This document shows positions 6,001-9,000 of a DNA stretch of 64,000 bases, piece by piece (positions within the stretch are counted from its first letter, which is position 1; the number at the start of each line of letters is the position of its first letter). The position numbers are program-made. The stretch lies in assembly GCF_001677475.2 (NCBI RefSeq), contig NZ_CP015229.1. One strand, written 5' to 3'. The stretch comes from Escherichia coli. GTDB taxonomy: Bacteria; Pseudomonadota; Gammaproteobacteria; Enterobacterales; Enterobacteriaceae.

Positions 6001-9000
6001 ACTTAAGAGACTATTTAAAAGAGAAACATATCACCCAGCTACAGTTTGGGAAGCTAACGGGTTTATCTCAGGTGCATGTAAGTCGAGTGCTGGGGGGCTA
6101 TGAAAGATTCAGCCCTGAAAAAGCATTACGTGTTGCTGAAGTAACGAATTTCGAGGTTACACCTCATGAACTCCGGCCTGATATCTACCCGAATCCAACC
6201 GACGGTTTACCTGTTGGATGTAAGGCTAACACACAAAATACACAGGAGTTGATTCATGAAAATCAGGCATGAGCACATCGAATCAGTGCTGTTAGCCCTG
6301 GCAGCCGAAAAAGGGCAGGCGTGGGTCGCTAACGCAATTACTGAAGAATATCTGCGCCAGGGGGGCGGCGAATTGCCCCTGGTACCAGGCAAGGACTGGA
6401 ATAATCAGCAGAATATTTATCACCGTTGGTTGAAAGGTGAAACGAAAGCGCAAAGGGAAAAAATTCAGAAACTGATCCCTGCGGTTCTGGCAATTCTTCC
6501 GCGCGAGCTGCGTCACCGACTCTGCATCTTCGATACCCTGGAACGCCGTGCATTACTGGCGGCGCAGGAAGCGTTGAGTACGGCAATTGATGCGCATGAT
6601 GATGCAGTCCAGGCCGTTTACCGGAAAGCACATTTCAGCGGCGGCGGTTCGTCCGGCGATTCTGTTGTTGTTCATTAAGTGAATAGGGTAACTAACAATG
6701 AAAATCAAACCGTTTATCAATGCTGGAAATCTTACTCCCGGCGAACTACGAGACTGGATCCTGAAACTTGCAAAAAATGCAGAAATTGCGGGTTGGGGTA
6801 CAGAAACTTCGGTTCGGAAGCTTCAGAGCGCAGAACTTAGCCTGCGCTCAGTTATGGACGATTTATCCCCAAGAATTAATTTTCTGGGGTCAGAGCAAAT
6901 AATTCGTTCGGAAGATCACTCCAGCGAAGTTGCGGAAGTTCTGAATACTCTGAGGATAACTTTTGCTGCCGTTCGCGATATTCAACGAACCATTCTCTCA
7001 TTGATTTCTCAGCTTCAAGAAATTGATAGTCGCATTCCTGACGGGGGTCATAGAGAGCGTCTTCCAGAATGTGAAGAGCAAGGACAGGGGAAACAGATAA
7101 GGGATCAGTAATACGTTTTTCACTTGCCTGGTATAGCAATCTCGCCAGCGAATCATAGCTACTGGGGCTCAGGAGAGAATCCCGTGAGTGATTTGTAAGA
7201 ATCAGGTGGAAGCGGGTGAGAACTATAGCCCTGCATGTTACCAGGTTAACCATGTCGTGGTCGTGCTGGTTAATTTTGTACACAGTGCGCATGTGATTTT
7301 TAATTTTTTGGCAAACAGCCATTAAAGACATGTCGAACCTCCTTTGGTTCTGTTGATTGGGGAATCACAGATTATATCCGGAGGAAGGTTCGACACCAGA
7401 TGAGGCAATTATGGTTAAGGCTAAAAACATGCCAAATCCCATGCCAAAAACTAAGGCAAACAATGAGCCTTATCGAAAGGTAAAAATAACGATATGGGAT
7501 GATCCCAAATTTAGGGCGTTATCTCCTCTGCCTCCAAGTGGACAGAGTTTGTTTATTTATCTGCTGACCAGTCCATTTACCGGGATTATTCCTGGGTTGT
7601 TTAAAGCCGGGCGGGCAGCAATGGCTGAAGAGTTGGGGTGGGATATCGAAGCCTTTGACTTAGCCTTAGGCGAAGCCATGAATCTTGGCATGGTGAAAGC
7701 AGATATCAAAGCCAGAGTTTTTTGGCTCCCGAATGCTGCGAAACACAATCCGCCAAACTCGATAAATGTCATTAAATCCTGGGCAAAGGCATTCGCTTTA
7801 ATTCCTGATTGCCCTCTCAAATGGGAGGCCAGGGAATCGCTGAGAGCAGCGTCCTACGGGGTTTCTGAGGCTTTGGGGATGGCATTCGATAAGGCAATCC
7901 CTTTGCCTGAGGATAAGCCTAAGGATAAGGCTAACGCTTTGTCATGCGGTATCCAGATAACAGATAACAGATATATAAACCCCACACATAACGCGCGCGA
8001 GAGTGCTCCGGCCAGTGAGGCAAATGGCGTGCCGTTGCAGACAGCGGAACCTGATTACCTGGAAGGCCTGAGCGAACCCATCGGGAAATTTCCGATGACC
8101 GATAGCTGGTATCCGTCACGGGATTTTCGACGACGGGCTGCGTTGTGGGGAGTGGCTCTGCCGGAGCCGGAATTTACACCTGCTGAACTTGCCGCCTTCC
8201 GGGATTACTGGGCAGCGGAGGGGAAAGTTTTCACGCAGGTTCAGTGGGAGCAGAAATTCGCCCGTCACGTAAATCACGTCAGGGCACAGGTTAAACCAGT
8301 CAGCAAGGGGGTGAACCATGCAGCAGCACCAGGTGGCACCGCATCACGGGCAGTTCAGGAAATTCGGGCAGCACGTGAGCAGTGGGAACGTGAAAACGGA
8401 TTTATCAGCGACGGAAACGGCCTGGAAGCTGTGGGAACTCATGGGGGAGGTTTATTCGAACCGCTGGACCCAGAAGAACGGGGCCGCACCATCGAAGCTC
8501 TGGATTGCACAGATTGGCGCGATGACTGAGCAGCAAATCCGGCAGGTCTGCCGCCAGTGCATGGACCGCTGCCGGGCGGGTGAAACATGGCCTCCGGACC
8601 TGGCTGAGTTTGTGGCGCTGATTTCGGAAAGCGGAGCCAATCCATTCGGTCTGACGGTGGATGCTGTGATGGAGGAGTACCGCCGCTGGCGCAACGAGTC
8701 CTGGCGATACGACGGAAGCGATAAATACCCGTGGTCTCAGCCTGTGCTGTATCACATTTGTCTCGAGATGCGTTCAAAGGGGATTGAGCGCCAGATGACC
8801 GAAGGGGAATTAAAACGGCTTGCAGAACGGCAACTGACGAAATGGGCAAAGCATGTTAGTAACGGCCTGAGCGTTCCGCCAGTCCGGCGACAACTGGCGG
8901 CACCCAAACGCCCGTCGGGGCCAACACCGATTGAGTTACTGAAACAGGAGTATGAACGCCGGAAAGCGGCTGGTTTTGTTTGAGTTGAGAAGTAATTTTT

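What the first reader, a model, noticed from the sequence alone, without database searches (positions are those of the whole stretch)
8318..8529. About 200 nt out-of-frame overlap between the O-position and P-like replication genes
The P-like reading frame is open and shows lambda-P-like similarity well upstream of the first in-frame ATG (8522) that would give a conventional coupled start, so it overlaps the 3' end of the upstream gene in another frame. This could reflect a non-ATG start, a sequencing or assembly frameshift, or a real frameshifted fusion product.
Basis: seen in the sequence. Interest (0 to 1): 0.3.

Follow-up and report, generated by a model that had tools for sequence, protein, structure and literature searches.

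The report
Conserved long overlap of two replication genes
In this E. coli prophage, the gene for the lambda-P-like helicase loader starts 212 bases inside the end of the replication-initiator gene, in another reading frame; the overlap is real, is conserved in related prophages, and means public annotations cut 68 residues off the loader.

Summary
The 212-nt out-of-frame overlap at 8318-8529 is real and is not an assembly artefact. An ATG at 8318 opens the P-frame ORF and has a near-perfect Shine-Dalgarno (AAGGGGGTGA, -11.8 kcal/mol).

- **Conservation:** In 21 diverged Enterobacterales loci, an SD plus ATG sits at this position in all 21. The initiator ORF overlaps the P start by 149-224 nt in the same relative frame.
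- **Annotated start:** The ATG at 8522 is missing in 7 of 21 loci and has no SD.
- **Protein evidence:** P residues 35-68 are strongly conserved. AlphaFold2 models them as three helices, and the whole model is co-linear with full-length lambda P.
- **Selection on both frames:** With random synonymous codons for P, the initiator frame stays open in only about 3% of trials per sequence.
- **Who constrains what:** In the first half the initiator helix (RAVQEIRAAREQWERE) constrains the DNA and lies over P's disordered leader. In the second half P's helices constrain it and lie over a disordered acidic initiator tail.
- **Cassette:** Initiators with DnaT-like, lambda-O-like or unclassified bodies share this tail, so tail and P travel as one unit.

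E. coli RefSeq and the phage records annotate a truncated 153-aa or 140-aa P. I found no paper describing the overlap. Interest is moderate.

The parts
7411..8529 (+). Replication-initiator gene ('U', YdaU-position, 372 aa). It has an N-terminal 'replication initiation protein' region, a DnaT-like ssDNA-binding domain (residues 227-293) and a C-terminal tail of about 70 aa. The start at 7411 follows the PP818812 annotation. Other starts (TTG 7357, ATG 7429) were not resolved.
   Evidence: ORF list. Pfam PF17948 E=3.4e-17. NCBIfam DnaT profile positions 81-166. phrog_1408 and phrog_3992 cover it through to their C-termini. Annotation in PP818812.
8305..8314 (+). Shine-Dalgarno sequence AAGGGGGTGA for the P-like gene. 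It lies inside the initiator coding sequence, where it encodes K-G-V. Its TGA (8312-8314) is the P-frame stop that closes the frame just upstream of the ATG.
   Evidence: Sequence. Anti-SD duplex -11.8 kcal/mol. All 21 diverged loci have GGAGGT-like, GAGGT-like or GGGGGT-like motifs upstream of the equivalent ATG, with a mean of -9.3 against a background of -2.85 +/- 2.26.
8318..8983 (+). Lambda-P-like helicase-loader gene, full length (221 aa), starting at ATG 8318. Public E. coli annotations start it at 8522 (153 aa) or later (140 aa).
   Evidence: Pfam PF06992 E=1.1e-16. phrog_109 'P-like helicase loader' covers residues 19-220. Homologues of 212-223 aa align from M1. The AF2 model matches full-length lambda P chain 9oa1_Z over 221 alignment columns. 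For annotations.
8318..8529 (+). Dual-coding overlap of 212 nt. The initiator is in frame 1 and P is in frame 2 (+1 relative to the initiator).
8347..8394 (+). First half of the overlap, where the initiator frame sets the constraint. It encodes the conserved initiator helix RAVQEIRAAREQWERE. The same DNA encodes P's variable leader, predicted to be disordered (P residues 1-27).
   Evidence: Initiator synonymous-difference fraction is 0.54, which is normal. P amino-acid identity is only 0.23. SNP classes in 87 loci: 13 change P only and 7 change the initiator only. AF2 gives helix pLDDT of about 70 and P residues 1-27 pLDDT below 50.
8396..8526 (+). Second half of the overlap, where the P frame sets the constraint. 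It encodes P helices 27-46, 48-54 and 60-67 (the AWxLWExMGEIYSNRWxxKNGxxPSxLWIAQIG block). The same DNA encodes the initiator's acidic tail, predicted to be disordered (…FEPLDPEERGRTIEALDCTDWRDD).
   Evidence: P synonymous-difference fraction is 0.564 against 0.581 outside the overlap. Initiator synonymous-difference fraction is only 0.179. SNP classes: 5 change P only and 17 change the initiator only; Fisher p=0.012 against the first half. pLDDT is about 87 for the P helices and below 50 for the tail.
8441..8443 (+). In-frame ATG (Met42). Some annotations in other genera use it as the start, giving forms of about 180 aa. It is more likely a structural Met inside helix 27-46.
   Evidence: ATG in 21 of 21 loci, but mean SD is only -5.8 (window -4.2). 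AW and LW residues just upstream (35-39) are conserved, and the helix begins at residue 27. A Met occupies the equivalent position in several remote homologues.
8522..8529 (+). ATGACTGA. This is the ATG (Met69) that E. coli annotations use as the P start, together with the initiator stop TGA (8527-8529). It looks like a classic coupled junction but is not the conserved start.
   Evidence: ATG present in only 14 of 21 diverged loci. SD mean is -3.9, close to background. For annotations.

Best explanation
Two replication proteins are encoded in two reading frames of the same 212 nt.

**Shown.** The lambda-P-like helicase loader is translated from its own start at ATG 8318. That start has a strong Shine-Dalgarno embedded in the initiator's coding sequence. 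The product is a 221-aa protein with a disordered leader of about 27 aa followed by a helical domain, laid out like domains I and II of lambda P. The initiator gene (DnaT-like domain plus tail) reads on in the -1 frame until TGA 8527-8529.

**Shown.** The overlap is maintained by selection on both frames, and the burden is split. In the first half the initiator's conserved helix constrains the DNA and P's leader is free to vary. In the second half P's conserved helices constrain the DNA. There the initiator tail is kept open but is otherwise weakly constrained and predicted to be disordered.

**Shown.** The tail and P form one conserved cassette joined to different initiator bodies: DnaT-like, lambda-O-like, or with no Pfam match.

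**Inferred.** Ribosomes translating the initiator run through P's start site, so expression of the two proteins is probably coupled. The shared tail is probably the part of the initiator that recruits the P-DnaB complex, as the lambda O C-terminal region does for lambda P. The E. coli annotation at 8522 is probably a by-product of gene callers that penalise long same-strand overlaps.
For: **Start signals**
- ATG 8318 is the first codon after the P-frame stop. The SD AAGGGGGTGA lies 3 nt upstream of the ATG.
- An SD plus ATG is present in all 21 diverged loci. Mean duplex energies are -9.3 at M1, -5.8 at M42 and -3.9 at M69, against a background of -2.85.
- The M69 ATG is absent in 7 of 21 loci.

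**Protein conservation upstream of 8522**
- Conservation is clear in alignments A1 and A2.
- Remote profile hits cover positions about 20-105.

**Structure**
- AF2 predicts helices 27-46, 48-54 and 60-67 at pLDDT of about 87, and residues 1-27 as disordered.
- Foldseek aligns the whole model to full-length lambda P, 9oa1_Z.
- Lambda P has a disordered domain I (1-29) followed by a compact domain II (30-119) (PMC12661323).

**Overlap conservation**
- The overlap is 149-224 nt in 21 loci.
- It is 131-227 nt in 6 of 7 more distant contexts.

**Selection**
- In resampling, the initiator frame stays open in a geometric mean of 0.033 of trials per sequence, and the P frame in 0.328.
- Synonymous-site partition.
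- SNP partition in 87 loci with 40 haplotypes, all with both ORFs intact. Fisher p=0.012.

**Cassette**
- The same tail follows PF17948-type, PF04492-type and unclassified initiators.

**Database support**
- 221-aa forms already exist in NCBI nr as 'replication protein' (P0001, P0002).
- PHROG profiles cover both long forms.
Against: - There is no direct evidence of translation. No proteomics or ribosome profiling was available.
- Every public annotation I fetched for E. coli genomes and related phage records starts P at 8522 or later.
- Direct similarity to lambda P itself is detectable only from residue 86.
- Met42 is an invariant ATG with a modest SD, so a shorter isoform starting at 8441 cannot be excluded.
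- P's synonymous rate in the second half is not depressed (0.564 against 0.581). Apart from staying open, the initiator's distal tail therefore shows little sequence-level selection.
- A single-chain AF2 model of tail-linker-P gave no confident docking, so the proposed tail-P interaction is untested.
- The loci are related, so the per-sequence resampling probabilities are not independent.
Confidence: 0.85

Rival explanations
1. Conventional coupled genes. P starts at ATG 8522 (ATGACTGA, an 8-nt overlap) as annotated. On this view the open upstream P frame is a non-functional by-product.
For: PGAP and phage-record annotations. The ATGA-type junction resembles lambda O/P, which overlap by 4 nt.
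Against: - The ATG at this position is missing in 7 of 21 homologous loci, and its SD is at background level.
- Residues 35-68 upstream are among the most conserved in the protein, and AF2 predicts them as three confident helices.
- Remote homologues carry the same block at their N-termini.
- The upstream SD plus ATG is conserved in 21 of 21 loci.
Confidence: 0.04
2. Two isoforms. Full-length P comes from 8318. In addition, a shorter P comes from Met42 (8441) or, in the E. coli lineage, from 8522 by termination-reinitiation at the initiator's stop.
For: - Met42 is an ATG in 21 of 21 loci, with SD energy above background (-5.8 against -2.85).
- RefSeq annotates forms of about 180 aa in Citrobacter, Klebsiella and Brenneria.
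- The ATGACTGA geometry at 8522 would allow reinitiation. This point is an inference.
Against: - Met42 lies inside predicted helix 27-46, and several remote homologues have a Met at the equivalent position, which fits a structural residue.
- The conserved A35, W36, L38 and W39 lie upstream of it.
- Met69 is not conserved.
- There are no expression data either way.
Confidence: 0.15
3. Programmed +1 ribosomal frameshift in the overlap, producing an initiator-P fusion protein.
For: - P is in the +1 frame of the initiator.
- phrog_15931 (482 positions) matches both proteins, so fused ORFs exist in phage annotations.
- Fused proteins occur in the protein database: P0081 and P0107.
Against: - P has its own conserved SD and ATG.
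- No slippery motif stood out when I read the overlap and the alignments by eye. I ran no systematic search.
- P0081 is a deletion chimera that joins the DnaT domain directly to P residue about 105. P0107 switches frame in the overlap, and the P part then runs on into unrelated sequence, as indel errors would produce.
- A -1 shift, the commoner kind in phages, would not enter the P frame.
Confidence: 0.03
4. Sequencing or assembly indel in this window splits or shifts what is really a non-overlapping gene pair.
For: None beyond the unusual overlap length.
Against: The same architecture appears in independent assemblies.
- 36 E. coli genomes cover at least 80% of the region, and 1,292 genomes have a match.
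- 87 close loci all have both ORFs intact.
- 21 diverged Enterobacterales loci show it.
- More distant metagenomic contigs show it too.
Confidence: 0.01

Closest known systems
Phage lambda O-P replication module (initiator O plus helicase loader P)
   Same: - The gene order is the same: initiator, then a P-family loader (PF06992).
- The AF2 model of the 221-aa protein aligns with full-length lambda P in the DnaB-lambda P complex 9oa1.
- The layout matches: a disordered N-terminal leader followed by a compact helical domain (PMC12661323).
- A probable origin lies inside the initiator gene (repeats at 7885-7941).
   Different: - Lambda O and P overlap by 4 nt. Here the overlap is 212 nt and dual-coding.
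- The initiator is not lambda-O-like. It has a DnaT-like domain, and its tail shows no detectable similarity to lambda O.
- Sequence similarity to lambda P is only 25% and starts at residue 86.
DopC/DopE pair (Brezellec et al. 2017, PMC5509034), domesticated phage genes in Cellvibrionales and relatives
   Same: The pairing is the same: an initiator-like protein carrying a DnaT C-terminal motif, together with a PF06992 P-like protein.
   Different: - Those are chromosomal, domesticated genes. This pair sits in a Rac-like prophage, next to homologues of dicA/racR, ydaS and ydaT.
- The paper does not mention any overlap.
- I did not examine whether dopC and dopE overlap.
E. coli K-12 Rac prophage ydaU-ydaV and the host dnaT-dnaC pair
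   Same: - The position in the module is the same: repressor, ydaS, ydaT, initiator, loader.
- The DnaT-like domain matches host DnaT profile positions 81-166.
   Different: - K-12 YdaU is a DUF1376 protein that is not significantly similar to this initiator (E=0.15).
- K-12 YdaV is annotated as an ATP-binding protein rather than replication protein P, and ydaU and ydaV do not overlap; they are separated by 6 nt.
Long same-strand overlapping genes that arise by overprinting in viruses
   Same: - Two frames of one DNA stretch are both kept open.
- Constraint is asymmetric between the frames.
- The subordinate frame encodes predicted disorder, as reported in general for overlapping genes (bioRxiv 10.1101/229690 and PMC8227390, abstracts).
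   Different: - This is a terminal overlap between two old, functionally linked genes, not a new gene born inside an old one.
- The dominant frame switches halfway through the overlap.

Membership tests
Phage_lambda_P helicase loader (PF06992) | Sequence match to the family profile above the curated threshold | tested here: met
   PF06992 E=1.1e-16, 61.4 bits against a cutoff of 26; residues 56-188 match profile positions 28-161. phrog_109 'P-like helicase loader' E=4e-63, residues 19-220.
Phage_lambda_P helicase loader (PF06992) | Fold and domain order of lambda P: disordered N-terminal lasso, domain II, domain III, C-terminal lasso | tested here: met
   AF2 model has mean pLDDT 77.6, residues 1-27 disordered, and helices from residue 27 onward. 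Foldseek to 9oa1_Z: E=1.6e-5 over 221 alignment columns. Match to 8v9s (modelled lambda P domain III, residues 119-192): TM-score 0.88 normalised to the target. Domain definitions are from PMC12661323. The global TM-score is low (0.40), as expected for flexibly linked domains.
Phage_lambda_P helicase loader (PF06992) | Binds and loads host DnaB at the phage origin | not testable with these tools
   Needs biochemistry or genetics.
DnaT-domain replication initiator (DopC-like, 'primosomal protein' of phage annotations) | DnaT C-terminal ssDNA-binding domain | tested here: met
   PF17948 E=3.4e-17, residues 227-293. The NCBIfam DnaT equivalog model matches profile positions 81-166 only, at 96 bits against a cutoff of 201. 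This is therefore a domain relative and not DnaT itself.
DnaT-domain replication initiator (DopC-like, 'primosomal protein' of phage annotations) | N-terminal origin-binding region and an origin with iterons | tested here: inconclusive
   phrog_1408 'replication initiation protein' covers residues 20-353. GATAAGGC-type repeats lie at 7885-7941, next to an AT-rich stretch. Binding was not tested.
Lambda-type coupled O/P junction (ATGA, overlap of 4 nt or less) | The loader's start codon overlaps or abuts the initiator's stop codon | tested here: not met
   The conserved start is 212 nt upstream of the initiator stop. The ATG at the junction is absent in 7 of 21 loci. Lambda itself overlaps by 4 nt.
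Functional dual-coding (overlapping) gene pair | Both frames stay open across diverged homologues more often than chance allows | tested here: met
   Both frames are open in 21 of 21 diverged and 87 of 87 close loci. The chance of staying open, as a geometric mean per sequence, is 0.033 for the initiator frame and 0.328 for the P frame.
Functional dual-coding (overlapping) gene pair | Purifying selection detectable on both protein products within the overlap | tested here: met
   - First half: the initiator helix is conserved with normal synonymous variation.
- Second half: the P block has 0.565 amino-acid identity with normal synonymous variation.
- The subordinate frame shows only stop avoidance.
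- The SNP classes switch between the two halves, p=0.012.
Functional dual-coding (overlapping) gene pair | Both products are actually translated | not testable with these tools
   No proteomic or ribosome-profiling data were available here.
Programmed ribosomal frameshift fusion | A conserved slippery site, with no independent start for the downstream frame | tested here: not met
   The downstream frame has its own conserved SD and ATG. No slippery motif stood out on reading the overlap and the alignments; no systematic search was run. The database fusions I inspected look like artefacts.

The most novel reading that the evidence does not exclude
The overlap may be an evolutionary device and not just compaction. 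On this reading, the initiator's loader-recruiting tail and the loader's N-terminal region are written in two frames of the same DNA. Recombination, which constantly reshuffles prophage replication modules, then cannot separate a matched initiator-loader pair. Translation of the initiator through the loader's start site would also set their ratio.

The arrangement looks old. The dominant frame switches midway, each structured segment is paired with a disordered one, and 6 of 7 more distant P-family contexts also overlap by 131-227 nt.
Probability: 0.3. Interest if true: 0.6.

Novelty: new variant of a known kind. Interest (0 to 1): 0.45.

Why it matters
**Annotation.**
- The RefSeq 'replication protein P' annotations I sampled in E. 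coli prophages, including O157:H7 strains, lack the first 68 residues. That removes the leader and the first three helices of the domain.
- In lambda P, the equivalent domain holds the loader ring together on DnaB, and the leader contacts DnaB.
- Anyone who clones or models the 153-aa form would be working with a truncated protein.

**Biology.**
- This is a well-supported case of a long same-strand overlap (149-224 nt) between two functionally linked bacterial-virus genes. It is conserved across genera and across different initiator types.
- The two frames divide the constraint cleanly between them.
- Long overlaps like this are usually dismissed as annotation errors and are suppressed by gene finders. 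In one related contig, no gene was called across most of the 350-codon initiator ORF.
- The arrangement suggests a testable idea about how mosaic phages keep interacting replication proteins matched.

Tried and rejected
- **Direct comparison with lambda P.** BLASTP and hhalign detect similarity only from residue 86, so they cannot decide the start.
- **Comparison of the initiator and its tail with K-12 YdaU and lambda O.** Nothing significant was found (E=0.15 and 0.94).
- **Single-chain AF2 of tail, 30-residue linker and P with paired rows.**
  - Only the RAVQEIRAAREQWERE helix reached pLDDT of about 70. The rest of the tail stayed below 50, and the P part did not improve.
  - This gives no evidence for or against docking.
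  - Covariation between the two frames is also confounded, because one mutation changes both proteins.
- **Fusion or frameshift idea.** phrog_15931 matches both proteins, but the fused database proteins I inspected look like a deletion chimera and an indel read-through. I rejected this idea.
- **Literature.** Five full-text searches and targeted reads found the DopC/DopE paper and the lambda P structure paper, but nothing describing this overlap.
- **NCBIfam.** It has no model that matches the P-like protein, so it does not explain the start PGAP chose.
- **Viral-contig scan.** It returned only close relatives at 97-100% identity. These were useful for SNP counts but not for depth.
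Full report
**What is at the coordinates.** The window carries a Rac-like prophage early region. It has a YdaT-family gene (6256-6678), a hypothetical gene, a long initiator gene ending at 8529, a P-like gene ending at 8983 and a DUF1627 gene. The initiator (7411-8529, 372 aa) has a DnaT-like DNA-binding domain at residues 227-293 (PF17948, E=3.4e-17). The next ORF (8318-8983, 221 aa) matches Phage_lambda_P (PF06992, E=1.1e-16). The two ORFs share 8318-8529, which is 212 nt, and P is in the +1 frame relative to the initiator. Its statement that 8522 is the first in-frame ATG is wrong. The P frame opens at 8315, immediately after a TGA, and its first sense codons are ACC ATG. 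A further in-frame ATG lies at 8441.

**How others annotate it.**
- The region is 97% identical to a record named Actinobacillus phage vB_Apl-pPE4 and about 94-95% identical to Rac-SA53 and PPompW/Stx2a prophages.
- It matches 1,292 of 5,426 complete E. coli genomes.
- Every annotation I fetched (PGAP and phage records) starts P at the equivalent of 8522, giving 153 aa and an ATGACTGA junction, or later, giving 140 aa.
- The protein database also holds the 221-aa form under NCBI names (P0001, P0002). In other genera it holds forms of 180 aa and 212-223 aa.
- Annotation is therefore inconsistent.

**Where the P protein really starts.**
- A scan of one genome per species returned 28 loci from Citrobacter, Klebsiella, Pectobacterium, Serratia, Yersinia, Erwinia, Rouxiella and other genera. 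I analysed 21 non-redundant loci.
- In all 21, the P frame has an ATG 30-36 codons upstream of a conserved block (AWxLWExMGEIYSNRWxxKNGxxPSxLWIAQIG). A GGAGGT-like, GAGGT-like or GGGGGT-like motif precedes that ATG.
- Mean anti-SD duplex energies are -9.3 kcal/mol at this start (window -11.8), -5.8 at Met42 and -3.9 at Met69. The background is -2.85 +/- 2.26.
- The codon at Met69 is an ATG in only 14 of 21 loci.
- In a 37-sequence alignment, W39, W50, K53, N54, G55, P58 and W62 are invariant, and all lie upstream of 8522.
- A profile search of 1.84 billion representative proteins found 576 relatives. Many remote ones match profile positions about 20-105. Remote full-length homologues have a variable leader followed by the same LWxxMxEIYxxRW block.
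- AlphaFold2 on the 221-aa form gives residues 1-27 as disordered and helices 27-46, 48-54 and 60-67 at pLDDT of about 87.
- Foldseek aligns the whole model to the fully resolved lambda P chain in the DnaB-lambda P complex (9oa1_Z, 221 alignment columns, E=1.6e-5).
- That paper describes lambda P as a disordered N-terminal lasso (1-29), a compact domain II (30-119), domain III and a C-terminal lasso (PMC12661323). The layout here is the same.
- Starting at 8522 would delete the leader and three helices. Starting at 8441 would cut the first helix.

**The overlap is conserved and selected.**
- In all 21 loci the initiator ORF is in the same relative frame and runs 149-224 nt past the P start.
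- I held each P protein fixed and redrew its synonymous codons from local usage. The initiator frame stayed open to its native stop in only 0.6-10% of trials, with a geometric mean of 3.3%. The reverse test gave 33% for the P frame.
- Among 87 close E. coli loci with 40 overlap haplotypes, both ORFs are intact in every one.
- These sequences are related, so the probabilities do not simply multiply. However, synonymous differences between identical residues run at about 0.56, so there has been ample opportunity for stop codons to arise.

**Division of constraint.**
- Because P is +1 to the initiator, the initiator's wobble base is P's second codon position, and P's wobble base is the initiator's first.
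- *First half (P residues 1-34).* The initiator shows normal synonymous variation (0.54) and a conserved motif, SRAVQQIRAAREQWER. P has only 0.23 amino-acid identity.
- *Second half (P residues 35-70).* P shows normal synonymous variation (0.564, against 0.581 outside the overlap) and 0.565 identity. The initiator's synonymous variation collapses to 0.179.
- SNPs in the close loci show the same switch. In the first half 13 change P only and 7 change the initiator only. In the second half the counts are 5 and 17 (Fisher p=0.012).
- AF2 agrees. The initiator helix (8347-8394) lies over P's disordered leader. P's helices lie over an initiator tail with pLDDT below 50.
- In each half, the structured and constrained product is paired with a disordered, tolerant one. 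This fits the general report that overlapping regions encode more disorder (bioRxiv 10.1101/229690).
- The distal tail is kept open, but its sequence conservation (for example EPLDxEER) may largely follow from P's conservation and the structure of the genetic code. I therefore claim selection for its presence, not for its exact sequence.

**A tail-plus-loader cassette.**
- The upstream proteins differ in their bodies. Several have the DnaT domain. One (L022) has the lambda-O N-terminal domain PF04492. Five have no Pfam match. All end in the same tail.
- PHROG profiles for 'primosomal protein' and 'replication initiation protein' extend through this tail to their C-termini.
- In 6 of 7 more distant P-family contexts, an upstream ORF in the same relative frame runs 131-227 nt past the P start. 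Several of their tails show an S-x-A/V-V-x-R-I/V-like motif soon after the P start.
- One context has only 53 nt of overlap, and lambda has 4 nt.
- In the most distant contexts the overlap appears to cover only P's leader. The extension into the conserved P block is seen in the Enterobacterales group.

**Mechanism.**
- *Shown:* there are two separate reading frames, each with its own signals, and both are maintained.
- *Inferred:* P initiates independently at 8318 on an mRNA that initiator-translating ribosomes also traverse, so the two are probably translationally coupled.
- *Inferred by analogy:* the shared tail recruits the P-DnaB complex. It is established knowledge that the lambda O C-terminal region interacts with lambda P. 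The 2025 structural study used O residues 156-299 for this purpose.
- My single-chain AF2 test of tail plus P was uninformative.
- The truncated annotation probably arises because gene finders restrict same-strand overlaps. From my own knowledge, Prodigal caps them at 60 nt; I did not test this here. PMC5810103 states in general that pipelines exclude non-trivial overlaps.
- In one related contig, no gene was called across most of the 350-codon initiator ORF.

**Rivals.**
- An assembly frameshift is excluded by recurrence in independent assemblies.
- A programmed +1 frameshift fusion is unlikely, because P has its own conserved start and the fused database proteins look like artefacts.
- The annotated 8522 start is contradicted by conservation and structure.
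- Additional shorter isoforms from 8441 or 8522 remain possible.

**Novelty.**
- Both proteins belong to known kinds. The pairing of a DnaT-motif initiator with a P-like loader has been described as DopC/DopE (PMC5509034).
- I found no description of the long conserved dual-coding overlap, of the split in constraint, or of the systematic truncation in E. coli annotations. My searches covered open-access papers only.
- I rate this as a new variant of a known kind, of moderate interest.

Noticed in passing
window 7885-7981: A cluster of GATAAGGC-type direct and inverted repeats lies inside the initiator gene, for example GCCTGAGGATAA/GCCTAAGGATAA at 7905-7928 and GATAAGGCNNNNNCTTTG at 7888 and 7924. 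An AT-rich stretch follows (CAGATAACAGATAACAGATATATAAACC, 7952-7981). The cluster sits between the initiator's N-terminal region and its DnaT domain. This looks like an origin of replication embedded in the initiator gene, as in lambda O.
   Followed up: partly
L001 (PP818812.1), whole match to window 7300-9000: A record named 'Actinobacillus phage vB_Apl-pPE4', with host Actinobacillus pleuropneumoniae, is 96.9% identical to this E. coli prophage region. Its neighbours are also typical E. coli Rac-like genes (dicA, ydaT). The host attribution looks doubtful.
   Followed up: no
window 6698-7111 (+) and 6876-7331 (-): A 137-aa ORF on the plus strand and a 151-aa ORF on the minus strand overlap antisense by about 236 nt. 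PP818812 annotates both as hypothetical proteins (gp12, gp13). PGAP annotates only the plus-strand one.
   Followed up: no
L118 1675-2727: In a related metagenomic contig, no gene is called across most of the 350-codon initiator ORF. That ORF overlaps the P-like gene by 227 nt. The likely cause is a gene caller that forbids long same-strand overlaps.
   Followed up: partly
phrog_15931; proteins P0081, P0107, P0029: One PHROG profile of 482 positions matches both the initiator (positions 164-347) and P (positions 281-482), so it appears to be built on fused ORFs. The database fusions I inspected were of three kinds:
- P0081 is a deletion chimera.
- P0107 is a frame-switching read-through.
- P0029, judged from its Pfam domains alone, is a P-DUF1627 fusion.
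These can mislead family-based annotation.
   Followed up: partly
one search hits such as P0191, P0147, P0212, P0209: Many proteins of 120-260 aa match only the N-terminal domain of this P family (profile positions about 20-105) and have unrelated C-terminal halves. The domain that lambda P uses for loader-loader contacts appears to be a mobile module combined with other partners.
   Followed up: no
window 9018-9788: The DUF1627 gene downstream of P has two HTH-like regions (several weak winged-helix Pfam matches at residues 4-50 and 87-126). It follows the P gene in every one of the six annotated related loci I fetched. It may belong to the same replication module.
   Followed up: no
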